Shown one piece after another: positions 20,599 through 38,390 of a stretch of 64,000 nucleotides of DNA. The position numbers and the translations under genes were made by a program. The stretch is from a bacterium (GTDB taxonomy: Bacteria; Patescibacteriota; Minisyncoccia; Phycocordibacterales; Phycocordibacteraceae). Location of the stretch: contig JAHFML010000001.1 in NCBI GenBank assembly GCA_023269085.1, forward strand, positions 108,578 through 172,577. The letters are read 5' to 3'. The notes below the pieces were generated by a model. It ran no database searches. It saw only the letters and a list, made by a program, of their open reading frames with translations, and was not told the DNA's origin. Position 1 is the stretch's first letter; each line of letters begins with the position of its first letter.

Positions 20599-21096
20599 TT
20601 ACCACCCCGATGCTCCGGGCGTATACACCGACCATTCGATATTTGTTCCGTTGGCAACACCCGAGCGTTGCGGATCAATAAGTGAAGAAACGCTATTTGA
20701 ATTCCCCACGCAGTTGTGAAAGAGAAGCTTGTAGTTCGTGCTGTCAGAAGTGTATATATAGCAACAGAAATTATTGGCGTCATCTTCTTTAGAATCTATC
20801 GGCATCGTGCCGAGATAGGTCGGCACCAAACCAGGAATGGTAGGACTAGGCCATCCCGGACAATGGCTCTGCCAACTATTCGAGCCGCCCGTCGATGGAT
20901 ACGCACCATTATTGCTCGACGCATACAAATCGAGAGCTTGTTGAATACTCCGCAGGTTTGAGGCGCGCTGGACGTCGAGAGATTTCCCTCGTGCCACATT
21001 GAGTGAAGCGAGTACGACCGACGAGAGCAAGCCGATGATGGCGATAACAACAAGAAGCTCGACGAGGGTGAAGCCAGAGTGGGGACGCAAGCGCAT
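20599..21096 (-). CDS. type IV pilin/pseudopilin (prepilin-type N-terminal cleavage/methylation domain)
   Basis: Leader MRLRPHSG|FTLVELLVVIAIIGLLSSVVL is the class III signal. The C-terminal region is Cys-containing. Local GC is visibly lower than the flanks. Confidence 0.75.
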   Translation of the reverse strand: MRLRPHSGFTLVELLVVIAIIGLLSSVVLASLNVARGKSLDVQRASNLRSIQQALDLYASSNNGAYPSTGGSNSWQSHCPGWPSPTIPGLVPTYLGTMPIDSKEDDANNFCCYIYTSDSTNYKLLFHNCVGNSNSVSSLIDPQRSGVANGTNIEWSVYTPGASGW

Positions 21097-21115
21097 ACGG
21101 AAAATATACCACGCG

Positions 21116-21283
21116 CTACTTACGCGCGGGCGGATTAGCATTGATAAACGCCCTCTGTTCCTGTGTGAGATGTGAAGATGGCGTAATGAGCACTGGGATG
21201 ACGAATGCGAGTACTACGGCAACTGCCGCGATACCGACAAGTACGATATTCACTCCCCGTTCGGTCGATGCGGCACCCGTCAT
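21116..21283 (-). CDS. hypothetical small membrane protein
   Basis: A single TM segment (IVLVGIAAVAVVLAFVIPVLI) downstream of the pilin. The short ORF has weak support. Confidence 0.25.
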   Translation of the reverse strand: MTGAASTERGVNIVLVGIAAVAVVLAFVIPVLITPSSHLTQEQRAFINANPPARK

Positions 21284-23652: not shown

Positions 23653-23898
23653 CTAATTTGATAAGACTGCCACGGAACGGTACAAGTCAAGCTGGCCTTT
23701 TTCAAGATGAAGAAGGCGGTCGTTCACCTCTATAAGATCGCCGTCTATATCGCTCAGTCTCGCGTGCACCTTCTTAAATTCCGCATGCACCTCACCGAAC
23801 TGTTCCTGCATATCCTGTCGCATCTCTCCGAACCCTTCTGCCATCAGGCGTGCGAGCATCTCGGTGTCAGTCTCTTTTTTAGCAGAAGCTTCTTTCAT
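23653..23898 (-). CDS. hypothetical small coiled-coil protein
   Basis: Short acidic/helical ORF directly downstream of the giant gene on the same strand. Confidence 0.3.
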   Translation of the reverse strand: MKEASAKKETDTEMLARLMAEGFGEMRQDMQEQFGEVHAEFKKVHARLSDIDGDLIEVNDRLLHLEKGQLDLYRSVAVLSN

Positions 23899-23966
23899 AC
23901 GGATATCATACTGCCCTCGCGGTCGGTGGGCAATCTTCTGGGCGTTCACAACGCACCCTCATAGCG

Positions 23967-26900
23967 TTATGTCGCCGGCGTGGCCGTCGCATCGACGGGA
24001 GTTGGCGCTACGGGAGAGGACGGCGGCGCGATGACCGTCACTACGCGCGATGCCGAGCCGACATTCCCCGCCGCGTCCGTCGCCGAGTAGGTCAGCGTGG
24101 TGAGGCCGATGGCCGCGGTATCGACCGCGCCAGTCTCGACGATCTTCGCGGTGAGATTGCCGTCAACATTATCGAGCGCCGTCGCGCCAGGGTCGGTGAA
24201 GGTATCACCTTGCGTCAGCTGTATCGCCGCCGCGCCGTTCAAGATGACGACCGGCGATGTCGTGTCGCCCTGCGGTGAGCCGGTCGAACCCGTCGAGGCC
24301 GGCGTCGATGATGCGGTGCCACTCGTCGCTGATACGCCGCTCGCTCCGCTCGCGGCGCCCCCTTGCGGCGTGCTCGACGCGACTGGCGCTATAACCACGG
24401 GCGCGGGCGCGCTCGCCGAGGTGCCGAGCGTGTTCGGCGTCGAGGTCGCCAATTGCCCCTCTGTCTGCACCAAGAAGTAATCGAAGGAGACATCAATCGT
24501 CTGCGGTGCCGAGAGCACGACGCGGAAGGATCCTGCCGTCTTATCAGCGACCCACCAGCTCCCGCTAATTTGTGAATTGAAGGTGACGAAGACTTTGGTC
24601 GACGGGAGAACGAGCGAGTTCTGCACCTGAGCGACGGTGTTGCCGGTGATGATGCTCACGCTCCCGGCGCTACTCGTACCGTCGGCGTCCTTCGAGGCGA
24701 CGATCTGACGGAAGACGAGCGTGTTGAACTGCGCGATGCCCTTCTCTATCAAGACGCCGAAGCCCTGCAAAGCACTCGCGAGCGAGGTCGTCCCGAGGGC
24801 GAGCGGCGACGCGCTCGCGACACTGACCGCTCCGCTCTCGAGCTTCGCGACGCGCGCCTCAAGCGAGGTGAGTCGCGTCCCTTGGGCATCAATTTTCCCT
24901 GCGAGCAACGAGACATTCGCCACCGCATAGGTCGCGAGCTTGTAGAGATCAACTTGCCGACCGTCGGCGGTCAAGACGGCGAGCGGTGTCGAGGTCGCGC
25001 CAGCAGGCACGTCGAGCTTCGCGTCGAGCTGTTGGATAGCCTTGGTCAACACCGACGTGAAGTTCGCATAGACGAAGCCGTTCGGATTCCCCTGCTCATC
25101 GCGCGTCACGAGCCTTGAATCCACGAGCGCCGCCTGCTCGGCGATGAAGCCAAGCTGAGTCGTCGCGCCATTGTCGCCATAGCCCTTGATGAAGGTGAAG
25201 GAGACCGGCTTCAAGGCGAGCACCTCATCGAGACCAGAGACCGAGGAGAGCGGCACGATGTTGGTCTTGAACTTCTCCGACGAGAGCGTACAGGTCGTCC
25301 CCGCCTCAATCTCATGCGTCACCGTGTTCCAGCAGAGGTAGTCGCCGGTGGTCGAGACCGTCGGCGAATCGATCGCCATGCTCCCTGCGACCGAGAGCTT
25401 ACGCCACGGGCTGGTGGTGCCGATGCCGATATTCCCCGTACTCACCGTCGCACCTGTCCCGCTCAACCCTGTCCCATATATCATGTTCCCGATATTGAGT
25501 TGGTTGCTTGCGGTCGCGCTCGGCACAGCGACGTCATTGCCGATGCTGATGTTGTTCGAGCCGGTCGTTACCTGATTCTGCGAGGCGGCGATAACGCTGT
25601 TGCCGAGGAAGGTGTTGCGGGCACCTGAGGTGATGCTGTAGCCCGATAGGTAGCCAACAAGGGTGTTGTAGTTGGAGTTGGTCTGGGCGGAGTAGCCCGC
25701 TTGGTAGCCGAGGTAGGTGCCGCCTTGGTTGGAGTAGGCGGCGGTGCCGCCGCCGGCGTTATAACCGACAGCGACCGAGGAGGAGGCGGAAGTATTGTAG
25801 CGAAGAGCAAATGAGCCGACAGCCGTGTTGAATGAGCCGGTGATGTTGGTGTTGAGCACCGAACGGCCGAGAGCTGTGTTGGAGTTGCCTGTTGTCAACA
25901 CCGGCAAAGTGAAAGCACCAAGTACTGTGTTGCTGTTGCCGGTTCTGTTAACATTCAAAGCATTCACGCCAACCGCTGTGTTTGTTGATGCTGTTCCGTT
26001 CGTCGGTGTCGTACCGAGCGCCCCCTGCCCGATTGCAATGTCGTAGAAGAGCGTCGAGGTTGCGCGCATCCAACCGGCGGCGCCGGTAGTGCCGAGGGCG
26101 AGTGAGAAGTTCGTCGTCGAAGCGTAGAGGACAGTATTCCCTGCTTGTTTGAAGCCTGAGTATTGGTCGGTGTTCACATAGCCGGCGACGTCGAGCTTGT
26201 AGGCAGGGGCGGTGAGGCCGATGCCGATATTCCCCGTACTCACCGTCGCACCTGTCCCGCTCAACCCTGTCCCATATATCATGTTCCCGATATTGAGTTG
26301 GTTGCTTGCGGTCGCGCTCGGAACAGCGACGTCATTGCCGATGCTGATGTTGTTCGAGCCGGTCGTTACCTGATTCTGCGAGGCGGCGATAGTGCTGTTG
26401 CCGAGGAAGGTGTTGCGGGCACCTGAGGTGATGCTAAAGCCCGATTGGTAGCCAACAAGGGTGTTGTAGTTGCTGCCGGTGGCAAGAACATAGCCGGATT
26501 GGAAGCCGACATAGGTGCCGCCCGTGTTGGAGTAGGCGGCGGTGCCTTGACCTGCCTGATGACCGATGGCGACTGAGGAGGTGGCGGAAGTATTGTAGCG
26601 AAGAGCAAAGTAACCGAATGCGGAGTTGTTGTTGCCAGTAATGTTCGAGTAGAGAGCGTTGTTACCATACGCAGAGTTACTGTTCCCTGTCGTGTTAAAG
26701 CGGAGTGTGTTGAATCCAAAAGCGCTATTCGTATTTCCAGTCGTATTGAGTGCGAGTGCTCCATATCCGAAAGCGTTATTTATCTTCCCGCTCGTGTTTG
26801 CACCCAAAGCACTGAACCCCACAGCGACATTGAACTGAGAGAGACCATTCGTCGGCACTGTCTGCAAAGCCCCCTGTCCAATCGCCACGTCGTAGAAGAG

Positions 26901-29900
26901 GGTTGAGGTCGCCCGCATCCAGTTAGCGGCAGAGGAGGCGCCAATGGCAAGAGATGAGTTCGTCGTCGATGCATACAAGACCGTGTTGCCTGCTTGCTTG
27001 AAGCCACTGTATTGGTCGGTGTTCACGTAGCCCGCGACGTCGAGCTTCTGGGTTGGCGAAGTTCCCACTCCCACATTCCCATTCGCCAAGATGTTGAGTG
27101 ACCCGATGGTGGAGGAAGCAGAGGCGATGATGCCGTTGGTGAAGCCGATGGTAGTGGAGGTGGAGACGCCCCACGCAGTCGGAGTGAAGGGCCAGGCGAA
27201 GGAGTCTTTGGTATTGAACGTATTCCAGTCCGTACTCGAGAGCCAGCCGTTCGTGCTGGTGTTCGCTTGGGTCATGGCGACGGTGTTGGCAGAGATGGTG
27301 AGCGGGAGGGTGGCAGAGACGATACGCGAGGTGTAGGCGGTGTTGAAGTGCGACCAATCTGCTTGGGCGAGGTAGCCGTCGGTGGTGCCGTTTGATTGGG
27401 CGATGGTGAGCGGTGAGCCGCTAGTGCCGTTGCCGGTCAAGGGTGCGGAGACGGCGACCGCAGTGAGAGCATTGGCGGCGACGCAGACACCGTTGATCGC
27501 ATAGCAACCCTTCTTCAAGTTGATGCCGTAGCCGAAGGTGGAAGTGGCGACATTTGAGATGTTGATGGTGTTAGCACCCGTGTTGCCGAGGGAGAGGAGT
27601 GAGCCCGGGGTGGTGGTGCCGATGCCGAGAAGACCAGTTGAAACGAGCGACATAAGTTCTGAATATCCGCCAGCGTTATAGTCATACCCCCAGAGCATTC
27701 TGGCGGTACCAGGGTTCCCTGATACCGGGAGCACTTCATTCTTGAAGTTTACCGTGCGCGAGGCCGCCGCGCCGGTATCCCACACCGTGCCGCTCAGGCG
27801 GAGACGAGGCGACATTTGTACCGTAGCTCCGGCTGTTGCCGCGGTGGTATTCGTCAGGATGATTCCATCTGTCGAGACTGCCGCAAGTGCTGTCCGTGTA
27901 TTGGTAAGTGTATTAGTCATCGCAAGACTAGAAATACTAGAAAGTGCCCCTCCGGATGTCAAAGTGAAGCGAGTAGTATATGCACCCCCGTTCACTCCAG
28001 AAGCAAAAATGAGATTGGATGTTGGATTTGCAGATCCTTGTACCGGAAGTGCATACATCTGCCAGTCGGTCCTTTGGCTCGCAACTGGGGTTGTCGCCCA
28101 TCCTTGTCCAGTGAATCGAAGAGAAGGGCTTATCTGTTGCGCTCCTGCTGAAGCCGCCGTCATGTTTTCAATAGCAAGACCAGAAGAGTTCGTTTGTATA
28201 ACTCCTAGAGCATTGGCGGCGACGGTAAGAAGCGAAGATGGCATCGGCGTTCCAACACCGACATAGCCATTCTTGTCGACCACAAAGCTCGTCTTGGTCG
28301 AAGAGCCGATGGCGAAAGAAAGCCGGCCGGCGGGTGCGTTCACCGAGAGCGTCGCCCAGGGGGTGGTGGTGCCGATGCCAAGGCGATCGTCTGCGGTCAA
28401 GACTGAGGAGAGCGCGCCTGAGGTGTTGTAGATGTCGATGATATGCGCCGTCTGGCTCGCCGAAGGGACGAGCGCGAGCGTCGTGGTCGCGACCGAGCCC
28501 GAGATCACCGCGAACTTCGCATAGAGCGTCGAGGTCGCGCCGACCGCGACGAGATAGGTCGAGGTAGCGAGCGAGACAGTGTGCTTGGTCGCATCGCTTG
28601 CCCAGCCACCGCCGACCGATGCGCCCGAGGTGTTGATCAGGCCGCAGGAGACATTCCCCGAGCCGTCGGTCTGGAGCGCCTGCGTGCCGGTACAAGAGGT
28701 GATGCTAGAGAGCGCGAGCGAGTTGGTGAATCGCGCCGTGCCTGCGACGTCGAGCTTATAGGCTGGCGCGGCCGTGCCGATACCGACATTGCCGGCGATA
28801 TACGAGATGTCCGCGCCTGAGGTCGCCCACGGCGATGAGACTTTGCTGTTGAAGATATTCCAATCGGTCGATGAGAGATATCCGTTCGCCGTGCTCGAGG
28901 CCTGCGCGAGCGAGAGCACATTGCCGGCGAAGGAGAGCGGGGCCGTCGCTAAGGTGATGCGTGAGGCATAGGCGGTGTCCCAGTTCGCACTATTGGCGTT
29001 CCAACCGGCGTAAGCAGAATTCCAATTGGTAGAATTGGCGGCGACGGTATCGTAGGAGCCATTCCAGTTCGTCGTTGAGGCGATGAGCGGAATTATGTAG
29101 CCGCTCGCGATCGAGAAGGCGCCCGTGCCTGAGTTGTAGGAGAGCGGGCCAGAGGTAGAGAGCGCCGCGCGCGCACGAGCGTCGGTGTAGTAGAGGTTCG
29201 CGCCTTCCGCGAGATTGGTCGTCGACTTGTTCGTGAGCCAATAATTGGTCGAGGTTGTCGAGAAGAAGAAGTCCTTGTTGAAGAGGCCGAGTGTAGTCGT
29301 CGAGAGGCGACTATTAAAATCGTTCCAATCGATACTGGAGAGGAAGCCGTTCGACGAGTTCCCTGCCTGCGCGATCGAGAAGGCGCCCGCGCCTGAGTTG
29401 TAGGCGAGCGGGCCAGAGGTAGAGAGCGCCGCGCGCGCACGAGCGTCGGTGTAGTAGAGGTTCGTGTTCCCCTCCTTAAGCCCATCGGTCGTCGTGGCAT
29501 ACCAATTCGCGAGAGAGAGCTTCGCGTTGAGCGCACTCTGGAGATCGGTCTGATTCGCGAGGACCCCGGTGATGTTCCCCCAGACGGCGCTCGTGATGCC
29601 GAGCGACGAGGTGGCGACCGCAACGAGTTTGCCGTTCGCGTTCGTGCCGAGAAGCGGCGCATTCGCGAGGCCAGAAAGCCACGTCGACCCCGAGACGGTG
29701 AGCGCCGTTGTTGATGCATAGGGGAAGACAGAAGCGAGCGACGAAGTGGCAACGAAGTGTCCGGAGGTTATCTGGCCGGCATTGCTAAATGAAGAGAGAT
29801 AGCTGGCGATGTCGGTCGAGCCGATGAAGAGATTGTCGAACTTGCCGGTTGTCGCCGAGACGAGACCGCCGCCGGTGAGGCTCCCCCCGCGGAAGTCGCC

Positions 29901-31637
29901 GTTCCGCACGATGAGATTTGAGAGGTCTTGAATCATGTTGACCTGCTGTATCGTCGTCATATTGGTCACCGTCTGCGCCGCGACTGGCTGCATCATGCCC
30001 GCAACCGTCGCGAGCACGTCGGTGCGGAGCGAGGCGAGCGACTGCGTCAAGAGATCCGGCGACACGCCCTTTACGATCGTCGTGTAGGTCGGATACGAAT
30101 TGACTACTCGCGCTGATACCGGCGCAGGTGCTAGAGCGAGAATAGTTGGCCGTGGGGTTATGATCGGCGCCGCGGTTTTCGATGTTGTCGTCGCAGAATA
30201 TATCGGGCGATCCGGCGCTATGACCAAGACCGTCGGTGAATGCACAAAAAACGTTGCAAGTGCTCCGCGTGTCGAATCAAAGAAATCGCGAATCGTCGTA
30301 TAGGTGCCGAGTGCGGCGCGCTCGCCAAGCGTGAGCGCCGGCACTGAGGTAATTACCGCCGCAAGACGCGATGCCGAGGGGAACGATTCGAGAACAAGCG
30401 CGGTCTTGCCGAGCAGGCCGAGAGCGGCGTCCTGCACGACAGAGGGGGAACGCGCTATGAGCACCGGTACCGCAACAGCCGCGCGACCGACTGCCGCAGA
30501 AGTCGCGTATGCCGCTCTGCCCGTTTGATCGACCGACGCGAGATACCCCCGCGTTATGGCATCGGTCGCTCTGACGAAATGCATCGCGCCAGAATATTCA
30601 ACATCGAAAACCGCCTCCGCGAGAGAGGGGGCTCCCCTGACGCCGCTCGACACCGTATCCGCGAGAGCATACATGACGCGGACATCGGTTCGTATCGCAG
30701 ATTGAGAAAGCGCGGCGATTGCGCGCGCGACGCCACGACCAGACGCAAATGCGAGATGCGGTACCTGCGCGAGCGCGTCTCGCGTGTCTGCGCCGATTGC
30801 GAGCGCCGTGCCGCCCATAGCATCAATCACCGATTGCCGCGTCGGCAGTGAGCTCGTCATTGCAGCGGCGATCTCTGACGGCGTGGTGACAAACGCGATT
30901 GTGCGAATGAGGCTCGCTCGTATTGCCGCAAACGAGATCGTCGATCGTGCCACAGGCGTCGCCGCGAATGTCTTATGGACCTCTGGTGACTCGGCGCTAT
31001 ATTCTCGAACGAGCGAGGTCTGCATCGACGCGAGCACATTTCCTGCCGAGAGCGCTCGGTACGCCGATGCCTCCGGAGAGGCTGCCATGACGCGAGACGA
31101 GATCTCGCGCATCGCACCGCGTGACGTATCGACGCGCGTCGCGATGCGCGAAGGCACGTCGCCGAAGGTCTCGGTGAAGCCGAGTGCTGTCTCTTGCGCC
31201 AGCGCCGCAACTTGATTGGTAAAACTGGACAACGCCTCTGCGCGCGCGCCGAGAGCGCCCAACGCGACGACGAGCAGAGCTGTGACAAGAGAGACCGTGC
31301 GCGTACCACGCACCGGCGTCCCGATGGCCAAGCGATATGGCGACACCACCATCTGCATCGTCAAGATTGACTCATCGCGCGGCTCTGTATTCTTCTGCAG
31401 CTTACGATATTCATTCGCACGAACATCAGCGAGCTCGCGTGCACGAAGAACCTTCCGATTTTTTTGTTTTTGTAAAAAGGATTCGAGCGCTACCCGATCT
31501 ACCATCCACTGATGCCCGATCTTTTTCCCTTCTATCTCTCCTGCTCGCACGAGTCGCGCGAGATAGTCTTGTGTGTATCCCGACAGCTCTCCAGCCTCTT
31601 TCGTTGTTATGAATTTTTCGTTAGGTGAGGAGTGCAT
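23967..31637 (-). CDS. giant (2,556-aa) membrane-anchored surface protein. N-terminal excisionase-type HTH, single TM, tandem repeats, tail-fibre-like Gly/Asn β-helix repeats, peptidase-S74-like intramolecular chaperone motif, C-terminal Ig-like domain
   Basis: One uninterrupted 7.7-kb ORF. N-term ITTKEAGELSGYTQDYLARLVRAGEIEGKKIGHQWMVDRVALESFL (HTH_17-like) and TM TVSLVTALLVVALGALGA. Repeats of NAFGYGALALNTTGNTNSAFG type. SSEKFKTNIVPLSS…LKPVSFTF (S74-like). C-terminal ~90 aa Ig-like (VVILNGAAAIQLTQGDTFTDPGATALD). Confidence 0.85.
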   Translation of the reverse strand: MHSSPNEKFITTKEAGELSGYTQDYLARLVRAGEIEGKKIGHQWMVDRVALESFLQKQKNRKVLRARELADVRANEYRKLQKNTEPRDESILTMQMVVSPYRLAIGTPVRGTRTVSLVTALLVVALGALGARAEALSSFTNQVAALAQETALGFTETFGDVPSRIATRVDTSRGAMREISSRVMAASPEASAYRALSAGNVLASMQTSLVREYSAESPEVHKTFAATPVARSTISFAAIRASLIRTIAFVTTPSEIAAAMTSSLPTRQSVIDAMGGTALAIGADTRDALAQVPHLAFASGRGVARAIAALSQSAIRTDVRVMYALADTVSSGVRGAPSLAEAVFDVEYSGAMHFVRATDAITRGYLASVDQTGRAAYATSAAVGRAAVAVPVLIARSPSVVQDAALGLLGKTALVLESFPSASRLAAVITSVPALTLGERAALGTYTTIRDFFDSTRGALATFFVHSPTVLVIAPDRPIYSATTTSKTAAPIITPRPTILALAPAPVSARVVNSYPTYTTIVKGVSPDLLTQSLASLRTDVLATVAGMMQPVAAQTVTNMTTIQQVNMIQDLSNLIVRNGDFRGGSLTGGGLVSATTGKFDNLFIGSTDIASYLSSFSNAGQITSGHFVATSSLASVFPYASTTALTVSGSTWLSGLANAPLLGTNANGKLVAVATSSLGITSAVWGNITGVLANQTDLQSALNAKLSLANWYATTTDGLKEGNTNLYYTDARARAALSTSGPLAYNSGAGAFSIAQAGNSSNGFLSSIDWNDFNSRLSTTTLGLFNKDFFFSTTSTNYWLTNKSTTNLAEGANLYYTDARARAALSTSGPLSYNSGTGAFSIASGYIIPLIASTTNWNGSYDTVAANSTNWNSAYAGWNANSANWDTAYASRITLATAPLSFAGNVLSLAQASSTANGYLSSTDWNIFNSKVSSPWATSGADISYIAGNVGIGTAAPAYKLDVAGTARFTNSLALSSITSCTGTQALQTDGSGNVSCGLINTSGASVGGGWASDATKHTVSLATSTYLVAVGATSTLYAKFAVISGSVATTTLALVPSASQTAHIIDIYNTSGALSSVLTADDRLGIGTTTPWATLSVNAPAGRLSFAIGSSTKTSFVVDKNGYVGVGTPMPSSLLTVAANALGVIQTNSSGLAIENMTAASAGAQQISPSLRFTGQGWATTPVASQRTDWQMYALPVQGSANPTSNLIFASGVNGGAYTTRFTLTSGGALSSISSLAMTNTLTNTRTALAAVSTDGIILTNTTAATAGATVQMSPRLRLSGTVWDTGAAASRTVNFKNEVLPVSGNPGTARMLWGYDYNAGGYSELMSLVSTGLLGIGTTTPGSLLSLGNTGANTINISNVATSTFGYGINLKKGCYAINGVCVAANALTAVAVSAPLTGNGTSGSPLTIAQSNGTTDGYLAQADWSHFNTAYTSRIVSATLPLTISANTVAMTQANTSTNGWLSSTDWNTFNTKDSFAWPFTPTAWGVSTSTTIGFTNGIIASASSTIGSLNILANGNVGVGTSPTQKLDVAGYVNTDQYSGFKQAGNTVLYASTTNSSLAIGASSAANWMRATSTLFYDVAIGQGALQTVPTNGLSQFNVAVGFSALGANTSGKINNAFGYGALALNTTGNTNSAFGFNTLRFNTTGNSNSAYGNNALYSNITGNNNSAFGYFALRYNTSATSSVAIGHQAGQGTAAYSNTGGTYVGFQSGYVLATGSNYNTLVGYQSGFSITSGARNTFLGNSTIAASQNQVTTGSNNISIGNDVAVPSATASNQLNIGNMIYGTGLSGTGATVSTGNIGIGLTAPAYKLDVAGYVNTDQYSGFKQAGNTVLYASTTNFSLALGTTGAAGWMRATSTLFYDIAIGQGALGTTPTNGTASTNTAVGVNALNVNRTGNSNTVLGAFTLPVLTTGNSNTALGRSVLNTNITGSFNTAVGSFALRYNTSASSSVAVGYNAGGGTAAYSNQGGTYLGYQAGYSAQTNSNYNTLVGYLSGYSITSGARNTFLGNSVIAASQNQVTTGSNNISIGNDVAVPSATASNQLNIGNMIYGTGLSGTGATVSTGNIGIGTTSPWRKLSVAGSMAIDSPTVSTTGDYLCWNTVTHEIEAGTTCTLSSEKFKTNIVPLSSVSGLDEVLALKPVSFTFIKGYGDNGATTQLGFIAEQAALVDSRLVTRDEQGNPNGFVYANFTSVLTKAIQQLDAKLDVPAGATSTPLAVLTADGRQVDLYKLATYAVANVSLLAGKIDAQGTRLTSLEARVAKLESGAVSVASASPLALGTTSLASALQGFGVLIEKGIAQFNTLVFRQIVASKDADGTSSAGSVSIITGNTVAQVQNSLVLPSTKVFVTFNSQISGSWWVADKTAGSFRVVLSAPQTIDVSFDYFLVQTEGQLATSTPNTLGTSASAPAPVVIAPVASSTPQGGAASGASGVSATSGTASSTPASTGSTGSPQGDTTSPVVILNGAAAIQLTQGDTFTDPGATALDNVDGNLTAKIVETGAVDTAAIGLTTLTYSATDAAGNVGSASRVVTVIAPPSSPVAPTPVDATATPAT
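25420..25672. repeat. intragenic tandem repeat copy A (~255 bp, near-identical to 26218-26470)
   Basis: Direct inspection: strings such as ctcaccgtcgcacctgtcccgctcaaccctgtcccatatatcatgttcccgatattgagttggttgcttgcggtcgcgctcgg occur in both copies. Period is about 798 bp (266 aa). Confidence 0.8.
26218..26470. repeat. intragenic tandem repeat copy B
   Basis: See copy A. Confidence 0.8.
29107..29470. repeat. two tandem ~264-bp (88-aa) repeats within the giant gene (NLYYTDARARAALSTSGPL[AS]YNSG[AT]GAFSIA)
   Basis: gcgatcgagaaggcgcccg…gagcgggccagaggtagagagcgccgcgcgcgcacgagcgtcggtgtagtagaggttcg occurs at about 29107 and about 29371. Confidence 0.7.
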
Positions 31638-32178
31638 GCGGATATCCGAATTAACTAAATGATATCTGATTATTCCGGCATCACCTAGCGCGAAGATGTG
31701 GATAATTCTTGAATAAAAAAGTATCCGCTTGAAGCCGGTAGTATGGCTGCTGTTTTTATAAAAAATTTCTTGAGATTTTCTTTATGGAGACTTGTCCTCA
31801 CGCATCCAACCTCTGCAATCTCGGCATATTCAGCTCATTATGTGTTCGTGACACACGAATATTCTCAAACATCAGTGCGTCTCGACGCAAAATCCCAGCA
31901 ATGTTGACCAACAAAATATCAGAAATGTTTTACTCGCTCAACTCTTTCTTGTTATCAGGAATAAACATATCTTATATGGTCATTCCTGCATGTTCTTGAA
32001 CTGATTTTCATTTACATACATTTATATATGCGTATCTGGCTTGCTACGCGATGCGTTGCCCGATATTTTTTACAGGTTATGACACCTGCTAACTCTCTTT
32101 ATTACAGGCTCTGCAACTGTATAGTCGAGTCAGAGTGGCTCATCTCGCGTATCCGAGACGAGATACATAGAAAATACG

Positions 32179-32976
32179 CTACTTATTGTAGATTGTGATT
32201 CCAAAAAAGTTGCTTACTCGACTGCTCGAGAACAAGTAGTTGTCCATATAGCCGCTGTTAGCAACCGCCAAAACTACAGAGACCATCGCCAGTAGTACGA
32301 AAAGTGTCTTGGTGGCGAGCATGATATGCGTTTGATATGGGCGCTCGTACTGCGGCATCGGCAAATCGGCCTTCTCTTGCTGCGGCAAGCGAGGCGCTGT
32401 TGGTACCGGATCCGCTGAAGGCAAGATCGCCGCGGCGCGCACGGGATTTAGAATGTGGATTGGTATGCTCACCAAAGCACCGGTTTCTGGTTCTGGTTCA
32501 GCAACCGTGTCTGCCGGTGTTGCGGCCTGACTGAACAGATTTTCCCACGAGTCTTGCAGACCGTTGCTCGGCTTCTCTGATACCTGTGGTGTCTTCGCCG
32601 TTTCCTTTATAGGCTCTGTTTCTTTTGTGGTCGTGACTGGTTCTGCAACCGACAGACTGGGCGTTCGCAGGCGATTAAGCGGTGGTAGCGCACTCACCTC
32701 GTCTTCTTCTACCGCTTCATATCGCGGAGCTGATTCATACGCGGCATTTTGAGTGTCCTGCTTAAAACCAATGTTCTCTGTACTGTTATTGACCTCCTCT
32801 CCGAACCTATGATCCTGAATAGCCGACTCGAGAACATACCACGCCCGACCAACGAGTCGTGCCGGGACCCTACCTTCGCGACAAAGCTGCCCTATATAAT
32901 CCTTCGCGTAGCCGGTAATCTTTGCGGCTTGTTTCGACGATATATATTTTTTTTCTTCTATGAGAATCTCATCCAT
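32179..32976 (-). CDS. membrane-anchored protein with an N-terminal excisionase-type HTH (paralogous N-terminus to the giant protein)
   Basis: ISSKQAAKITGYAKDYIGQLCREGRVPARLVGRAWYVLESAI (HTH), an acidic/Pro-rich linker and a C-proximal TM TLFVLLAMVSVVLAVA. Confidence 0.6.
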   Translation of the reverse strand: MDEILIEEKKYISSKQAAKITGYAKDYIGQLCREGRVPARLVGRAWYVLESAIQDHRFGEEVNNSTENIGFKQDTQNAAYESAPRYEAVEEDEVSALPPLNRLRTPSLSVAEPVTTTKETEPIKETAKTPQVSEKPSNGLQDSWENLFSQAATPADTVAEPEPETGALVSIPIHILNPVRAAAILPSADPVPTAPRLPQQEKADLPMPQYERPYQTHIMLATKTLFVLLAMVSVVLAVANSGYMDNYLFSSSRVSNFFGITIYNK

Positions 32977-33035
32977 TGCTGTCAGTATAAGGGTATCTCG
33001 GCTCGGTGAAAAGGGTTGTGCACAGAGCCTGTATT

Positions 33036-34451
33036 TTAGCCAAGAGTAGCGATGATGAGTTCGCGGAGTAGGGTCGGATTGCCGGCACCTCGCGTAGCTT
33101 GCATGCTCTTGCCGACGAGGTATTGCAAAGCCGCGTCCTTCCCCGATCGGTACTCGATAACCGCCTTGACCTCTTCTTTAAGCACGCTCTCGACCGCAGT
33201 GCGCAAGAGCGTCGCGTCATGCACCTGGATCAACCCGTGCTCCGTGGCGATATTCTCGGGATCTCCCCCCTTCTCGACGAGCAGAGCGAGCGTGTCCTTA
33301 GCCCCGCGCGATGAGAGTTCGCCTGTGTCAATGAGCTTGATGAGCTTCGCAAAAGCCTTCGGGTCAAGAGCCGCATATTCTTCGCACCCCTGTTTGGCAT
33401 ATATACCTGCAAGATCCGATACGATATAGTTCACGGCGATTGAGACAAGACGGCGATCCATACCAAGTTCTTCCGTAAGAGCATCAAAGAATGTCGCGCG
33501 CTCGAGCGTGTCCACTACATAGGCGATATCACTCTCTTTCAAAGCAAAAGCTTCTGTGTACCGCGTTCGACGCTCCCAGGGGAGCTCGGGAAGTGATGCG
33601 CGTATCACCGCATCACTGAAATCAGCAATCTCCGACCGATACATCTTCGGGAGATCTGGTTCAGGGAAGTAGCGATAGTCGGCGCTCCCCTCCTTAAAGC
33701 GTTGGTGAAAGGTTATCTGCTTCGATTCATCCCATCCGCGCGTCTCCTGCACGACCGCCCCGCCGCTCTCAATAAGCGCTGACTGCCTTTCGATCTCGTG
33801 TGCGATAGCGCGCTCGACCGAACGAAACGAGTTCAGGTTTTTGACTTCGACTTTCGTGCCGAGCTTCCCTTCTTCCTTCGAAACCGAGATGTTCGCTTCG
33901 ATGCGCATTTCTCCCTTCTCGAGATTTGCTTCTCCTGCACGAAGGGTACGGAGAAGGAGCTGCAATTCTCGTGCGAATCTCCCTGCCGTCGCCGCATCGT
34001 GAATCACGGGTTCAGTGACCAGCTCCATGAGCGGCACGCCGGAACGATTGAAGTCGACACAACTCCCTTCTTTCGCGTGTGTCGAGCGCGCCGTGTCTTC
34101 TTCGAGATGCACGCGGGTGACCGCAACACCCGCGAGCTCTCCACCCTCTACGAAGGGATGTTCGTATTGACTGATCTGATACCCTTTAGGGATATCAGGA
34201 TAGAAATAGCTCTTGCGATCGAATTCACTGAAATCCGCGAGCTCCCCGCCGAGGGCCGTACCAACCCGCAGGATATGCCGCACTGCTTCTCGATTGATCA
34301 CAGGCAATGTCCCCGGGTGTGCGAGACATACGGGGCAGACATGCGTATTCGGTTTTACTTCGTCAGCGTCATTCGCACAGCGACAGAACATCTTAGTCGC
34401 TGTTTTGAGCTCGGCGTGTATCTCAAGTCCTATGGTCGGGCGGTACTCCAT
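33036..34451 (-). CDS. gatB: Asp-tRNA(Asn)/Glu-tRNA(Gln) amidotransferase subunit B
   Basis: MEYRPTIGLEIHAEL…CRCAND…CPVCL (GatB N-terminal Zn motif) and the C-terminal YqeY-like tail. Confidence 0.9.
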   Translation of the reverse strand: MEYRPTIGLEIHAELKTATKMFCRCANDADEVKPNTHVCPVCLAHPGTLPVINREAVRHILRVGTALGGELADFSEFDRKSYFYPDIPKGYQISQYEHPFVEGGELAGVAVTRVHLEEDTARSTHAKEGSCVDFNRSGVPLMELVTEPVIHDAATAGRFARELQLLLRTLRAGEANLEKGEMRIEANISVSKEEGKLGTKVEVKNLNSFRSVERAIAHEIERQSALIESGGAVVQETRGWDESKQITFHQRFKEGSADYRYFPEPDLPKMYRSEIADFSDAVIRASLPELPWERRTRYTEAFALKESDIAYVVDTLERATFFDALTEELGMDRRLVSIAVNYIVSDLAGIYAKQGCEEYAALDPKAFAKLIKLIDTGELSSRGAKDTLALLVEKGGDPENIATEHGLIQVHDATLLRTAVESVLKEEVKAVIEYRSGKDAALQYLVGKSMQATRGAGNPTLLRELIIATLG

Positions 34452-34507: not shown

Positions 34508-35476
34508 TCAGGCAAGCAATGTTGCAAGCCTATCTGAGAATTGTTTGAGTGATAAATCGTCGATTATAGAGACTGCAAGCACTTCCCCACCCGTCTCCTT
34601 CTTCAAGCTATCAATCGCTTCTTGTACCTCTGCAGGAGAGAGAAGATCGGTCTTTGAGAGTACAATTATTTCCTTTTTATCTATAAGCGCCTGTCCAAAC
34701 GACTCTATTTCTTTACGAACTTCTCTGTAGGCACTAATCTTGTCTTCTTGGCTAGCCGAGACGAGATGTAGCAGGATTCCTGTCCTTTCTACGTGCTTTA
34801 GGAACTTTATGCCGAGACCTCGCCCTTCCGAGGCGCCTTCAATAAGCCCCGGGATATCAGCAATAATGCGACCATAGAAGTCCCCGAGGTTCGGCTCGAG
34901 CGTGGTGAATGGATAGTCACCGACCTTTGACTTTGCTCGGGTCAACGCATTGAGGAGCGACGACTTGCCGGCGTTCGGAAGGCCGATAAGCCCAGCATCG
35001 GCGATGATTTTCAGACGGAACTCGATATCCCCACCCTTCCCCGGTTTACCGTTCGTCTGCTCAAACGGATTCTGATTCGTCGAACTCTTGAAGTGCGCAT
35101 TCCCGAACCCGCCGAAGCCTCCCCTGAAAAGTACGAGCTGCTCATCCTCGTGGGTTATTTCGAACTCGTCACCATCATCGCCAACACGAGCGACCGTACC
35201 AACAGGAACCTTGAGAAAGACATCCGCCCCGTTTGCGCCGTTCTTGTATTCGCCTTGTCCTGCCACGCCATTCTCGGCATGAAATTTCTTCTCATATCGA
35301 AACTGCGCGAGCGCTGAGAGATCGCGCACGCCGATCAAGATAACGTCGCCGCCGCGTCCGCCATCGCCGCCCGATGGGCCGCCGCGCGCCTTCTCCTTCG
35401 TATGCGCCCAACGAATGACGCCGTTACCGCCACCACCTGCCGTTGCCTGTATTCGTACTTCATCAATAAATGCCAT
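34508..35476 (-). CDS. obg: GTPase Obg
   Basis: Gly-rich Obg fold (GGGGNGVIRWAHTKEKARGGPSGGDGGRGGDVIL) plus G1-G4 motifs (GLPNAGKSS, DIPGLIEGA, SKTD). Confidence 0.9.
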   Translation of the reverse strand: MAFIDEVRIQATAGGGGNGVIRWAHTKEKARGGPSGGDGGRGGDVILIGVRDLSALAQFRYEKKFHAENGVAGQGEYKNGANGADVFLKVPVGTVARVGDDGDEFEITHEDEQLVLFRGGFGGFGNAHFKSSTNQNPFEQTNGKPGKGGDIEFRLKIIADAGLIGLPNAGKSSLLNALTRAKSKVGDYPFTTLEPNLGDFYGRIIADIPGLIEGASEGRGLGIKFLKHVERTGILLHLVSASQEDKISAYREVRKEIESFGQALIDKKEIIVLSKTDLLSPAEVQEAIDSLKKETGGEVLAVSIIDDLSLKQFSDRLATLLA

Positions 35477-38100: not shown

Positions 38101-38205
38101 ACTATGCGCGCTTCTTAGCGGCGGTGCGCTTCTTAGCAGCCTTCTTGACTGCCTTCTTCGCGACCTTCTTGACGGTCTTCTTCACTGCTCGTTTCTTTGT
38201 TGCCA
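38101..38205 (-). CDS. unannotated 34-aa lysine-rich basic peptide (MATKKRAVKKTVKKVAKKAVKKAAKKRTAAKKRA)
   Basis: Manual translation; ATG at 38203-38205 (minus), TAG at 38101-38103. AKK/VKK periodicity resembles histone H1/Hc1-like tails. Below the ORF-track size cutoff. Confidence 0.4.
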
Positions 38206-38299
38206 TGGTGGTTGTGAATTAGAAATGATTACTGATAGGTCGACCCGTCTGCGCGTAAATAGTTTTATGCACAAACGTTCCTACACAACATTATCGCGC

Positions 38300-38390
38300 G
38301 TAAAAAATATTTGTGTGCACGAAAAAATATTTTGTGTGGATAACTCACGCGAAAATATTTTTATAAAAAATATTTTCGCGTGAGTTATTT
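38300..38390. promoter_or_regulatory. AT-rich region with two direct AAAAAATATTT(T)GTGTG repeats and a 22-bp-arm inverted repeat (38340-38361 / 38367-38388) around AAAATATTTT
   Basis: Seen in sequence: ataactcacgcgaaaatatttt-tataa-aaaatattttcgcgtgagttat. Position suits a terminator for the 38555..40726 gene and/or an operator for the small basic ORF and secA. Confidence 0.5.

What the first reader, a model, noticed from the sequence alone, without database searches (positions are those of the whole stretch)
32179..32976. A second HTH-plus-TM protein directly upstream suggests a family of membrane-tethered HTH proteins
The 265-aa product begins ISSKQAAKITGYAKDYIGQLCREGRVPARLVGRAWYVLESAI. This is clearly homologous to the giant protein's N-terminus (same spacing of G-Y-x-x-D-Y, R-x-G and W-x-V-x-x-x-L-E-S). 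Like it, it has a linker then one TM helix near the C-terminus (TLFVLLAMVSVVLAVA), with only about 25 extracellular residues.

Two adjacent co-oriented genes therefore share an N-terminal DNA-binding-type module plus a membrane anchor, with very different ectodomains. That looks like a short regulatory partner and a long effector. It could instead be a duplication in which one copy acquired the fibre.
Basis: seen in the sequence. Interest (0 to 1): 0.7.

Follow-up and report, generated by a model that had tools for sequence, protein, structure and literature searches.

The report
Membrane-tethered DNA-binding protein beside giant fibre
This gene encodes a small protein anchored in the cell membrane by its tail, with a very conserved DNA-binding head inside the cell; in a group of ultra-small uncultured bacteria it always sits just before a giant surface-fibre gene that usually starts with a related head and anchor, an undescribed pairing that may link the chromosome to the cell surface.

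Summary
ORF 32179-32976(-) encodes a 265-aa protein with an N-terminal winged helix-turn-helix, an acidic disordered linker, one C-terminal TM helix and a 25-residue outside tail. Its HTH is homologous to the N-terminus of the downstream 2,556-aa protein (BLASTP E=2e-10; both match Pfam HTH_17).

- **Family:** the short protein is a conserved, locally single-copy gene found in at least 222 Paceibacterota species genomes.
- **Synteny:** the order secA-obg-gatB-short-(AT-rich spacer)-giant is conserved. The short HTH is about 90% identical across species; the giant's is 58% and is lost in three lineages.
- **Wider family:** the giant-type HTH-TM N-terminus defines 622 or more protein clusters of 104-7,214 aa, many with tandem HTHs.

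So a family of membrane-tethered HTH proteins is supported. The "regulatory partner plus effector" reading is plausible but unproven.

Conserved promoter blocks include a phased TTATCCACA, identical to a DnaA box, before every giant-type gene and before the secA operon. Whether the HTH or DnaA binds it cannot be decided in silico.

Best reading: a membrane-located DNA-binding regulator or tether for the fibre locus. It works like ToxR but is not a member of that family.

The parts
32179..32976 (-). Short HTH-TM gene, 265 aa plus stop codon
   Evidence: ORF listing. Full-length homologues of 223-293 aa at 36-56% identity.
32800..32976 (-). Residues 1-59: N-terminal beta-hairpin plus winged helix-turn-helix (a1 14-21, a2 25-34, wing 39-49, a3 50-58). 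Cytoplasmic.
32341..32799 (-). Residues 60-212: acidic, Pro-rich, disordered cytoplasmic linker. It carries conserved islands PRYE..LPxxNRL (84-103; nt 32668-32727), LQDSWxxWF amphipathic helix (140-148; nt 32533-32559) and VxIPIH (167-174; nt 32455-32478).
   Evidence: Alignments A1 and A2. Segment identities are 0.52 and 0.59 for the first two islands, about 0.36 for the VPIH region, and 0.13-0.20 for the rest. Mean net charge is -15.6. AF2 pLDDT is low except for helix 140-152.
32257..32322 (-). Residues 219-240: single transmembrane helix
   Evidence: Kyte-Doolittle score 2.34. AF2 helix 213-240 with pLDDT above 90. Present in all 74 orthologues parsed.
32182..32256 (-). Residues 241-265: conserved extracytoplasmic tail, GSGY-D-Y--S...G---YNK
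   Evidence: G242, D245 and G259 are invariant in 120 sequences; Y243, Y247, S250, Y263 and N264 are nearly invariant. Segment identity is 0.49.
32984..33024 (-). Conserved promoter-like block of the short gene: TGTGCACA (33017-33024), -35-like TTTTCA (33007-33012), spacer with GCCGAGATAC (32993-33002), -10 TATACT (32984-32989) ending 7 nt before the ATG. This implies a leaderless or near-leaderless mRNA.
   Evidence: Promoter scan hit. Conservation across 75 loci. Box statistics. Coordinates.
32143..32163 (-). Block A: conserved hairpin or palindrome TCTCGTCTCG-N-CGAGA about 15 nt after the short gene's stop codon. It has no U-tract.
   Evidence: Conserved in 42 of 58 spacers. Folds into a 9-bp stem. 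A similar element follows a giant gene's stop in L062.
31638..32178 (-). AT-rich spacer of 541 bp (39% GC) between the short and giant genes
   Evidence: 57 other loci have a spacer of 200-1000 bp, most of them 400-740 bp. Mean spacer GC is 0.37 against 0.54 for the loci. No Rfam match.
31697..31705 (-). TTATCCACA box, identical to the DnaA-box consensus. The box starts 68 nt before the giant gene's ATG.
   Evidence: One of only two perfect copies in the window. 58 loci have it within 100 nt upstream of a fibre-protein ATG (56 of them giant-type N-termini). The spacing is bimodal at 67-69 and 76-79 nt. It accompanies every giant-type paralogue.
31638..31690 (-). Block B: promoter-proximal conserved stretch (GCCGAAATA..AAGTTATTATTTAGTTAATTCGG-TATCCGAC) ending at the giant gene's ATG. 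No Shine-Dalgarno sequence is evident.
   Evidence: Many columns are over 90% invariant across 58 loci. It is unique in the window.
23967..31637 (-). Giant partner, 2,556 aa: HTH_17 (residues 7-59; nt 31461-31619), basic linker, TM (115-133; nt 31239-31295), fibre region, Peptidase_S74 (2119-2172), surface Ig-like domain (2466-2535).
   Evidence: PHROG tail-spike and virion-protein hits. Orthologues range from 456 to over 3,179 aa.
38335..38343 (-). Second TTATCCACA box, at the head of the co-directional gene string: K-rich mini-ORF, secA, obg, gatB, short gene.
   Evidence: It lies in a conserved block of about 110 nt that contains CGCGATAAT (38290-38298).

Best explanation
The 265-aa product is a tail-anchored, single-pass membrane protein with its N-terminus in the cytoplasm.

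**Shown.**
- The cytoplasmic head is a winged helix-turn-helix of the Xis/BldC/MerR (Pfam HTH_17) type. Every close structural relative of this fold binds double-stranded DNA.
- The head is joined to the C-terminal membrane helix by a disordered acidic linker of about 150 residues that carries short conserved motifs.
- A 25-residue conserved tail lies outside the membrane.
- The gene is conserved in Kaiserbacteria-like Paceibacterota and appears once per locus examined. Its conserved downstream neighbour is a giant, highly variable surface-fibre protein that usually has a paralogous HTH-TM anchor.
- The gene has its own conserved promoter block.

**Inferred.**
- The protein binds chromosomal DNA while embedded in the membrane.
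- It acts as a membrane-located regulator or tether of the fibre locus. This is the ToxR/CadC style of operation, built on a different DNA-binding fold.
- Its operators lie in the conserved promoter-proximal blocks of the short gene, the giant-type genes and the secA-operon promoter.
- The conserved linker motifs and outside tail would take input from, or dock to, partner proteins such as the fibre's membrane-proximal region.
For: **Architecture and homology.**
- ORF, TM helix and topology.
- Homology between the two HTHs.
- HTH_17 profile matches.

**DNA-binding fold.**
- The domain model has pLDDT 93.2.
- Foldseek probabilities are 0.9-0.99 to Xis, TraN, RdfS and BldC, and 0.84 to RacA.
- A profile search of the PDB finds TraN/AM32 at E=1e-5.

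**Selection.**
- The HTH is 90% identical across 75 species, against 44% for the whole protein. That equals the best-conserved 49-residue windows of SecA, GatB and Obg (0.89-0.96).

**Link to the fibre gene.**
- secA-obg-gatB is followed by the short gene in all 80 loci, and by the giant gene wherever the contig extends far enough.
- The association persists in a distant lineage where the giant has no HTH.
- It also persists in three loci where the giant lost its HTH.

**Regulatory DNA.**
- The short gene has its own conserved promoter block.
- The giant gene has conserved blocks, including TTATCCACA phased at 68 or 78 nt from the ATG.
- The box accompanies every giant-type paralogue.
- 119 of 125 perfect boxes in 1.14 Mb lie at just two promoter positions.

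**Binding mode.** Tandem HTH copies in 38 of 150 relatives suit binding to repeated DNA sites, as BldC and Xis do.
Against: - No DNA target has been demonstrated.
- The most conspicuous conserved site, TTATCCACA with the variant TTGTCCACA, is exactly the canonical DnaA box, so DnaA is the more parsimonious binder.
- The distant L081 lineage has the HTH-TM protein but no such box.
- The outside tail is too short to be a sensor domain like those of ToxR or CadC.
- The mirror-tree test found no specific co-evolution between the short protein and the giant's N-terminal region. The partial r of 0.25 is no better than the Obg control at 0.38, and TM/tail against the giant's TM region gives 0.03.
- The clade is fairly tight (SecA 79% identity), so conserved gene order alone is weak evidence of functional coupling.
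- The short protein scores 0.3 bit below the Pfam gathering threshold.
Confidence: 0.45

Rival explanations
1. Chromosome-to-membrane tether. The HTH binds DNA, but the job is architectural: holding the nucleoid, or this locus, at the membrane in a very small cell, as RacA anchors the B. subtilis chromosome. It would not be gene-specific regulation. The giant's HTH would likewise pin the base of the fibre to DNA.
For: - The gene behaves like a housekeeping gene: one copy per locus examined, fixed length, embedded among secA, obg and gatB.
- The neighbouring operon starts with a conserved lysine-rich, histone-H1-like mini-protein.
- Tandem HTHs in relatives would increase avidity for DNA.
Against: - No repeated genomic site comparable to RacA's ram sites was found in the 64-kb window. 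The conserved motifs are confined to promoters of this locus.
- The giant's HTH has been lost in three lineages without loss of the fibre gene.
Confidence: 0.2
2. Assembly or anchoring partner of the fibre. The short protein docks through its TM helix and conserved outside tail to the giant protein's membrane-proximal region. The two HTH domains serve mainly to pair the proteins in the cytoplasm, and DNA binding is secondary or lost.
For: - Adjacency to the fibre gene is strictly conserved.
- The 25-residue outside tail and the linker motifs are conserved, which implies protein partners.
- The giant and the 'third paralogues' share a conserved juxtamembrane segment.
Against: - There is no co-evolution signal between the short TM/tail and the giant's TM/juxtamembrane region (r=0.03).
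- The near-invariant HTH retains the basic wing residues and the fold of DNA binders.
- The giant's HTH is dispensable in three loci and absent in L081, so HTH-HTH pairing cannot be the essential function.
Confidence: 0.15
3. The conserved TTATCCACA sites are ordinary DnaA boxes. DnaA, not the HTH proteins, co-regulates the secA operon and the fibre genes with the replication cycle. The short protein's DNA target, if any, lies elsewhere. This is a rival for the cis-element part of the explanation only.
For: - The site matches the universal DnaA-box consensus at 9 of 9 positions.
- The observed variant TTGTCCACA is the DnaA box of high-GC Gram-positive bacteria. This comparison rests on established knowledge of DnaA boxes, not on a test here.
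- The box is absent in the L081 lineage, which still has an HTH-TM protein.
- The box is retained upstream of fibre genes that have lost their own HTH.
Against: - The boxes occur singly, whereas DnaA generally prefers pairs or clusters of sites (abstract of PMC11317965, listed).
- 119 of 125 perfect boxes in 1.14 Mb sit at promoters of this one locus.
- Every HTH-TM giant-type paralogue keeps one even where the rest of the upstream region has diverged.
Confidence: 0.5
4. Remnant of a mobile element: an excisionase-like gene and a phage tail-fibre gene from a degraded prophage.
For: - The HTH matches excisionase and terminase-small-subunit PHROGs weakly.
- The giant matches tail-spike PHROGs and carries Peptidase_S74.
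Against: - Position between gatB and GAPDH is the same or similar in 80 species-level genomes.
- There is no integrase or other phage gene nearby.
- Both proteins are membrane-anchored.
- The HTH is under strong purifying selection.
Confidence: 0.02

Closest known systems
ToxR / CadC / TcpP-type membrane-bound one-component transcription regulators
   Same: N-terminal cytoplasmic winged-helix DNA-binding domain, one TM helix, and DNA binding while membrane-embedded. They are often encoded next to their target or partner genes.
   Different: Their DNA-binding domain is the OmpR type (Trans_reg_C), not the Xis/MerR type. They have a folded periplasmic sensor domain, whereas the short protein has only 25 outside residues and a 150-residue acidic cytoplasmic linker. 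There was no Pfam match to Trans_reg_C.
BldC (Streptomyces) and Xis/RDF excisionases (Pfam HTH_17)
   Different: They are small soluble proteins with no linker, TM helix or membrane location. Excisionases act with an integrase, and none is present here.
RacA (B. subtilis chromosome-anchoring protein)
   Same: A MerR-like winged HTH at the N-terminus that fastens DNA to the cell envelope. It is a structural neighbour.
   Different: RacA reaches the membrane indirectly, through a coiled coil and DivIVA. It has no TM helix and binds GC-rich palindromic ram sites.
TraN (AM32) of Enterococcus plasmid pIP501
   Same: The closest solved relative by sequence profile (E=1e-5). It is a tandem pair of HTH_17-like domains that binds dsDNA and belongs to a membrane-spanning machine, a type IV secretion system.
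   Different: It is cytoplasmic with no TM helix, is plasmid-encoded, and has no fibre partner.
RodZ
   Same: A bitopic protein with a cytoplasmic N-terminal HTH, a linker and one TM helix. It is a conserved housekeeping gene.
   Different: Its HTH is of the Xre type and binds MreB rather than DNA. It has a sizeable periplasmic C-terminal domain. No Pfam match to RodZ-type domains was found here.

Membership tests
Pfam HTH_17 (PF12728; Xis/AlpA/MerR-like winged HTH) | Profile match at or above the gathering score of 27 bits | tested here: inconclusive
   The short protein scores 26.7 bits (E=6.9e-6), 0.3 bit below the cut-off. The giant scores 31.1 and 27.9 bits, both above it. About half of the short-family homologues carry a precomputed PF12728 hit.
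Pfam HTH_17 (PF12728; Xis/AlpA/MerR-like winged HTH) | Fold: a1, turn, a2 recognition helix, beta-hairpin wing, a3 | tested here: met
Pfam HTH_17 (PF12728; Xis/AlpA/MerR-like winged HTH) | Binds double-stranded DNA | not testable with these tools
   Inferred only from the fold neighbours, many of which were solved in complex with DNA.
MerR-family transcription regulators | Winged HTH followed by a long antiparallel coiled-coil dimerisation helix and an effector-binding C-terminal domain | tested here: not met
   After residue 59 the chain is disordered and acidic, with no long helix. There are no MerR or MerR_1 Pfam hits.
Excisionase / recombination directionality factor | Small stand-alone protein encoded with an integrase in a mobile element | tested here: not met
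   The protein is 265 aa and membrane-anchored. Its neighbours are gatB, obg, secA and GAPDH, with no integrase, and the position is conserved in 80 genomes.
ToxR/CadC-like membrane-bound regulators | Cytoplasmic N-terminal DNA-binding domain plus a single TM helix | tested here: met
   HTH at 1-59, TM at 219-240, and positive-inside bias.
ToxR/CadC-like membrane-bound regulators | OmpR-type winged helix (Trans_reg_C) and a folded periplasmic sensor domain | tested here: not met
   There is no Trans_reg_C hit, and only 25 residues lie outside the membrane.
RodZ | Xre-type HTH, TM helix and periplasmic RodZ C-terminal domain | tested here: not met
   The only Pfam hit is HTH_17, and there is no C-terminal domain.
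Paceibacterota membrane-tethered HTH_17 family (defined here) | HTH_17-type domain or domains at the N-terminus, followed within about 250 residues by one TM helix | tested here: met
   Both window proteins fit. So do 136 of the best 150 representatives (median HTH-to-TM distance about 48 residues), and 38 have tandem HTHs. The named members looked up and the titled genome records are Paceibacterota or Patescibacteria.

The most novel reading that the evidence does not exclude
The short protein and the giant fibre form a trans-envelope link between the cell surface and the chromosome. A surface fibre of up to several thousand residues ends, on the cytoplasmic side, in a DNA-binding domain. Contact with a host cell, or tension on the fibre, would be relayed to gene expression or nucleoid anchoring. 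The relay could work by changing DNA binding at the membrane or by proteolytic release of the HTH, and the invariant tail-anchored short protein would be the obligatory co-factor. That would make it a contact-sensing circuit of episymbiotic ultra-small bacteria with no described equivalent.
Probability: 0.15. Interest if true: 0.85.

Novelty: new variant of a known kind. Interest (0 to 1): 0.6.

Why it matters
Patescibacteria (CPR) are a large, mostly uncultured part of bacterial diversity. They have tiny genomes and very few recognisable regulators, and they live attached to host cells. How they sense and hold on to hosts is largely unknown.

This locus is conserved and present in hundreds of species. 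It couples a DNA-binding domain directly to the membrane and, in most members, to a giant, fast-evolving, tail-fibre-like surface protein.

If the HTH domains bind DNA as their fold predicts, this is a minimal signal path from surface to chromosome, or a physical nucleoid-envelope tether, in cells with almost no other regulatory machinery.

The work also supplies concrete, testable cis-elements: phased DnaA-box-like sites, a leaderless-type promoter and a shared hairpin. In addition it defines a family of over 600 protein clusters that public records label only as 'hypothetical' or 'helix-turn-helix domain-containing'.

Tried and rejected
- **Word-indexed protein search with the giant's N-terminal 172 residues.** No hit reached E<=0.001 against 5.8 billion sequences. 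The exhaustive representative search was used instead and worked.
- **Full-length AlphaFold model of the short protein.** Mean pLDDT was 59 and only the TM helix was confident. The invariant HTH gives no covariation signal. This was solved by modelling the domain alone with a diverse alignment.
- **Single-sequence PDB search.** Nothing meaningful.
- **Rfam scan of 31000-33500 at E<=1.** No RNA family matched.
- **oriC hypothesis for the AT-rich spacer.** Rejected. There is only one DnaA-like box within one mismatch, no GC-skew switch in the window, and genes are co-oriented on both sides.
- **Hidden coding sequence in Block B.** Rejected, because in-frame stop codons lie upstream of the giant's ATG (read from the sequence and the consensus).
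- **Mirror-tree co-evolution test between short and giant proteins.** No signal above controls.
- **The 7-kb insertion between the two genes in L009-type loci.** It turned out to be an atp operon and is not informative.
- **Prophage origin.** Rejected on synteny.
- **Literature searches.** Four searches found no prior description of this family.
- **Cannot be told apart in silico.** Block A as an RNA terminator hairpin or as a palindromic operator.
Full report
**1. The observation**

The ORF at 32179-32976 on the minus strand is real. It starts with ATG and encodes 265 aa, beginning MDEILIEEKKYISSKQAAKITGYAKDYIGQLCREGRVPARLVGRAWYVLESAIQDHRFG. Directly downstream on the same strand, after a 541-bp spacer, lies a 2,556-aa ORF at 23967-31637.

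The two N-termini are homologous.
- BLASTP gives 34% identity and 64% positives over 53 residues, E=2e-10.
- Reciprocal phmmer searches against all 919 six-frame ORFs of the window pick out only these two (E=1.7e-7 and 2.1e-8). Everything else has E>=1.
- Both match Pfam HTH_17. The short protein scores 26.7 bits, 0.3 bit under the 27-bit gathering score. The giant scores 31.1 and 27.9 bits.

The membrane anchor is also confirmed.
- One strongly hydrophobic segment lies at residues 219-240 of the short protein (Kyte-Doolittle 2.34) and one at 115-133 of the giant.
- AlphaFold models residues 213-240 of the short protein as a single confident helix.
- 25 residues follow the helix.
- Across the family, 4.2 K/R precede the helix and 1.9 follow it. 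That places the HTH in the cytoplasm.

The 'W-x-V...L-E-S' match is not in register: BLAST needs a 4-residue gap, and a multiple alignment does not use that gap.

**2. The short protein is a conserved family**

A search of 5.8 billion proteins returned 1,529 clusters at E<=0.001. The best 120 are all 223-293 aa and align over 99-100% of the query at 36-56% identity. Where named, they come from Patescibacteria, Paceibacterota or Kaiserbacteria, and they are annotated only as hypothetical or 'helix-turn-helix domain-containing'. A scan of one genome per GTDB species found relatives in 222 stretches, of which 80 loci were fetched.

Alignments of 28 and 120 members show a distinctive conservation profile.

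| Segment | Residues | Mean pairwise identity |
|---|---|---|
| HTH | 9-57 | 0.90 |
| PRYE...LPxxNRL island | 84-103 | 0.52 |
| LQDSWxxWF island (amphipathic helix in the model) | 140-148 | 0.59 |
| VPIH..ELLP region | 167-184 | 0.36 |
| Remaining linker | 60-212, outside the islands | 0.13-0.20 |
| TM helix | 213-240 | 0.26 |
| Outside tail (GSGY-D-Y--S...G---YNK) | 241-265 | 0.49 |

- Residues 1-59 are almost invariant.
- The linker as a whole is acidic, with mean net charge -15.6, and 9% proline.
- The TM helix varies in sequence but is always present.

Calibration matters here. The clade is fairly tight, with mean pairwise identity of 0.79 for SecA, 0.75 for Obg and 0.71 for GatB. Their best 49-residue windows reach 0.89-0.96. 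The HTH is therefore as constrained as the catalytic cores of housekeeping enzymes, not more so. The protein as a whole (0.44) evolves much faster than its neighbours.

**3. The fold**

The full-length model was poor outside the TM helix (mean pLDDT 59). Modelling residues 1-62 with a diverse alignment of short-type, giant-type and tandem HTHs gave pLDDT 93.2 and pTM 0.78. The order of elements is N-terminal beta-hairpin, a1 (14-21), a2 (25-34), beta-hairpin wing (39-49) and a3 (50-58).
- Foldseek's best PDB matches are mycobacteriophage Pukovnik Xis, TraN/AM32, RdfS, BldC and RacA. Probabilities are 0.84-0.99 and TM-scores 0.5-0.7.
- A sequence profile finds TraN/AM32 at E=1e-5.
- All of these are double-stranded-DNA-binding winged helices.

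DNA binding by the domain is therefore a well-founded inference, but it is not shown.

**4. Context**

In all 80 loci the order is a Wzy_C/TPR membrane protein, secA, obg, gatB and then the short gene. Wherever the contig continues, a giant-type ORF follows.
- 67 loci have a giant-type HTH-TM ORF. Three more are cut by the contig end.
- The TM helix of the giant lies about 45-60 residues after its HTH.
- The giant's length ranges from 456 aa (L014) to over 3,179 aa (L078). The short protein stays at 226-282 aa.
- The giant's HTH is much less conserved, at 0.58.
- The window's giant carries Peptidase_S74 (the tail-fibre intramolecular chaperone) and a surface Ig-like domain, and it matches tail-spike PHROGs.
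- Some loci add a third paralogue of about 230 aa with an HTH, a TM helix and a juxtamembrane segment.

Three loci (L039, L074, L076) have a fibre protein whose HTH is deleted. In L074 the N-tip MDPLLKEN runs straight into the TM helix.

In a distant Paceibacterota lineage (L081) a tandem-HTH-TM protein sits by gatB. It lies upstream of a giant of over 3,300 aa that has only a signal anchor.

The short, membrane-tethered HTH protein is thus the constant element, and the HTH on the fibre is accessory. This argues against a recent local duplication. It favours a functional link between the tethered HTH protein and the fibre locus.

**5. The wider family**

An exhaustive HMMER search with the giant's first 172 residues found 2,716 representative clusters at E<=0.001, 622 at E<=1e-10 and 30 at E<=1e-30. 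Lengths run from 104 to 7,214 aa.
- All of the best 150 contain the HTH.
- 136 have a TM helix within 250 residues after it, at a median of about 48 residues. Most of the rest are fragments.
- 38 have two or three tandem HTH copies.
- The four of ten looked-up clusters that carry an organism name are all Candidatus Paceibacterota.
- Some members, such as P0251, repeat the short-protein plan with tandem HTHs: heads, a long linker, a C-terminal TM helix and a short tail.

**6. Cis-elements**

These lie outside the given coordinates but bear on function.

The spacer between the two genes is AT-rich: 39% GC here, and a mean of 37% against 54% for the loci. Across the other 57 loci with a spacer it is mostly 400-740 bp long. 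Only its ends are conserved.
- **Block A** (32143-32163) is a hairpin or palindrome, TCTCGTCTCG...CGAGA, just after the short gene's stop codon. It forms a 9-bp stem with no U-tract. A similar element follows a giant gene's stop in L062.
- **Block B** ends at the giant's ATG. It contains an invariant TTATCCACA (31697-31705) followed by a near-invariant stretch of about 45 nt with no Shine-Dalgarno sequence.

The TTATCCACA box is highly specific to this locus.
- It is the only perfect copy in the window apart from one at 38335-38343, upstream of secA.
- In 1.14 Mb of loci there are 125 perfect copies, against about 4 expected per strand. 119 lie on the gene strand at just two positions: within 100 nt of the giant's ATG, or 200-460 nt before secA.
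- Box-to-ATG distances for the giant are bimodal at 67-69 and 76-79 nt. The difference is one helical turn.
- The secA-proximal box is embedded in a conserved promoter-like block of about 110 nt. It precedes, by a fixed 133-141 nt, a conserved lysine-rich mini-ORF of 22-47 aa (MAKKRKAAKK...), found in 50 of 60 loci. In the window this ORF is at 38102-38206.
- The box, or the variant TTGTCCACA, also precedes every third paralogue, second giant and mini-giant examined.
- It persists upstream of fibre genes that lost their HTH.

The short gene has its own conserved block: TGTGCACA, a -35-like hexamer, a 17-nt spacer containing AGCCGAGATAYGG, and TATACT 6-7 nt before the ATG. This implies a leaderless-type transcript. 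A relaxed box, TT[AG]TNCACA, occurs there in 26 of 75 loci, against 0.013 expected.

The box is identical to the canonical DnaA box, so DnaA is the parsimonious binder. The alternative is that the invariant HTH of the short protein recognises it, which would be autoregulation of a small locus-wide regulon. That alternative is attractive but untested. I put it at roughly 25%, against about 50% for DnaA.

**7. Mechanism**

I commit to the following.
- The short protein is a tail-anchored membrane protein that binds DNA at the inner face of the membrane through an Xis/BldC-type winged helix.
- It acts on the fibre locus as a membrane-located regulator or tether. It works like ToxR/CadC but is not a member of that family.
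- Its linker motifs and outside tail mediate partner contacts.

The shown steps are the architecture, topology bias, fold, family, synteny and conserved promoter blocks. The inferred steps are DNA binding, the target sites and the regulatory consequence. Confidence is 0.45.

The rivals are a general chromosome-membrane tether like RacA (0.2), a fibre docking or assembly partner (0.15) and a mobile-element remnant (0.02). A mirror-tree test did not support specific co-evolution with the giant.

**8. Novelty**

Four literature searches found no description of this family. Membrane-tethered DNA-binding proteins are known, for example ToxR, CadC and TcpP, and RodZ shares the bitopic HTH-TM layout. 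HTH_17 domains are common. What is new is the combination:
- an Xis/MerR-type domain that is tail-anchored;
- conservation at housekeeping level across a CPR lineage;
- a paralogous copy forming the cytoplasmic end of a giant tail-fibre-like surface protein.

I rate it a new variant of a known kind, with interest 0.6.

Noticed in passing
window 31697-31705(-) and 38335-38343(-); loci L001-L080: A perfect DnaA-box 9-mer, TTATCCACA, occurs 125 times in 1.14 Mb of related loci, against about 4 expected per strand. 119 copies lie at two promoter positions: upstream of giant-type HTH-TM genes and upstream of the secA operon. The giant-gene sites are phased at 68 or 78 nt from the ATG, a difference of one helical turn.
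   Followed up: yes
window 38102-38206(-): A tiny lysine-rich ORF, MATKKRAVKKTVKKVAKKAVKKAAKKRTAAKKRA (34 aa, histone-H1-like), lies between the secA-proximal box and secA. It is conserved in 50 of 60 loci, with its ATG a fixed 133-141 nt after the box. It is probably an unannotated nucleoid-associated mini-protein.
   Followed up: partly
window 31638-32178(-): The intergenic spacer is unusually long (541 bp) and AT-rich (39% GC) for a compact genome. A spacer, mostly 400-740 bp, recurs in 57 other loci. Only the two ends are conserved, plus a mid-spacer motif TCGCACAAT in 24 of 58 spacers. There is no Rfam match.
   Followed up: partly
window 32143-32163(-); also 34747-34766(-) inside obg; L062 19420: The conserved hairpin or palindrome TCTCGTCTCG-N-CGAGA follows the short gene's stop codon and, in L062, a giant gene's stop codon. 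A closely similar 20-mer lies inside the obg coding sequence in the window and in several loci. It may be a terminator without a U-tract or a palindromic operator; this is undecided.
   Followed up: partly
window 32984-33024(-): The short gene has its own conserved promoter-like block. Its -10 hexamer, TATACT, ends only 7 nt before the ATG (6-7 nt in other loci) and there is no Shine-Dalgarno sequence, which suggests a leaderless mRNA. The giant gene also lacks an obvious Shine-Dalgarno sequence.
   Followed up: partly
window 23967-31637(-): The giant protein combines a cytoplasmic HTH, one TM helix, tail-spike-like repeats, a Peptidase_S74 self-cleaving chaperone domain (residues 2119-2172) and a C-terminal surface Ig-like domain. 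Orthologues vary from 456 to over 3,179 aa, and relatives reach 7,214 aa. S74 cleavage would release the last 400 or so residues.
   Followed up: partly
L039 11102, L074 2628, L076 9287: In three related genomes the fibre protein has lost the HTH and linker, so the N-tip runs directly into the TM helix. The upstream box and the short gene are retained.
   Followed up: yes
L009 11002-11748, L013 6061-6777, L025 11018-11731, L026 11012-11761: A third paralogue of about 230 aa, with an HTH, a TM helix and a hydrophobic juxtamembrane segment like the giant's, lies between the short gene and the giant. In L009 an atp operon is inserted before the giant, and L025, L026 and L077 have a similar 7-kb gap there.
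   Followed up: partly
L081 7366-17185: A distant Paceibacterota lineage has, next to gatB, an 87-aa soluble MerR/HTH_17 protein and a 394-aa tandem-HTH-TM protein whose C-terminal outside domain is also found in P0266. These are followed by two secreted proteins and a giant of over 3,300 aa without an HTH.
   Followed up: partly
window 23653-23949(-): A 98-aa ORF lies between the giant gene and GAPDH. It has no PHROG match, and no other library was tried.
   Followed up: no
window 20599-21141(-): A 180-aa ORF carries a type IV prepilin-like N-terminus (GFTLVELLVVIAIIGLL). This was seen only in the ORF listing.
   Followed up: no
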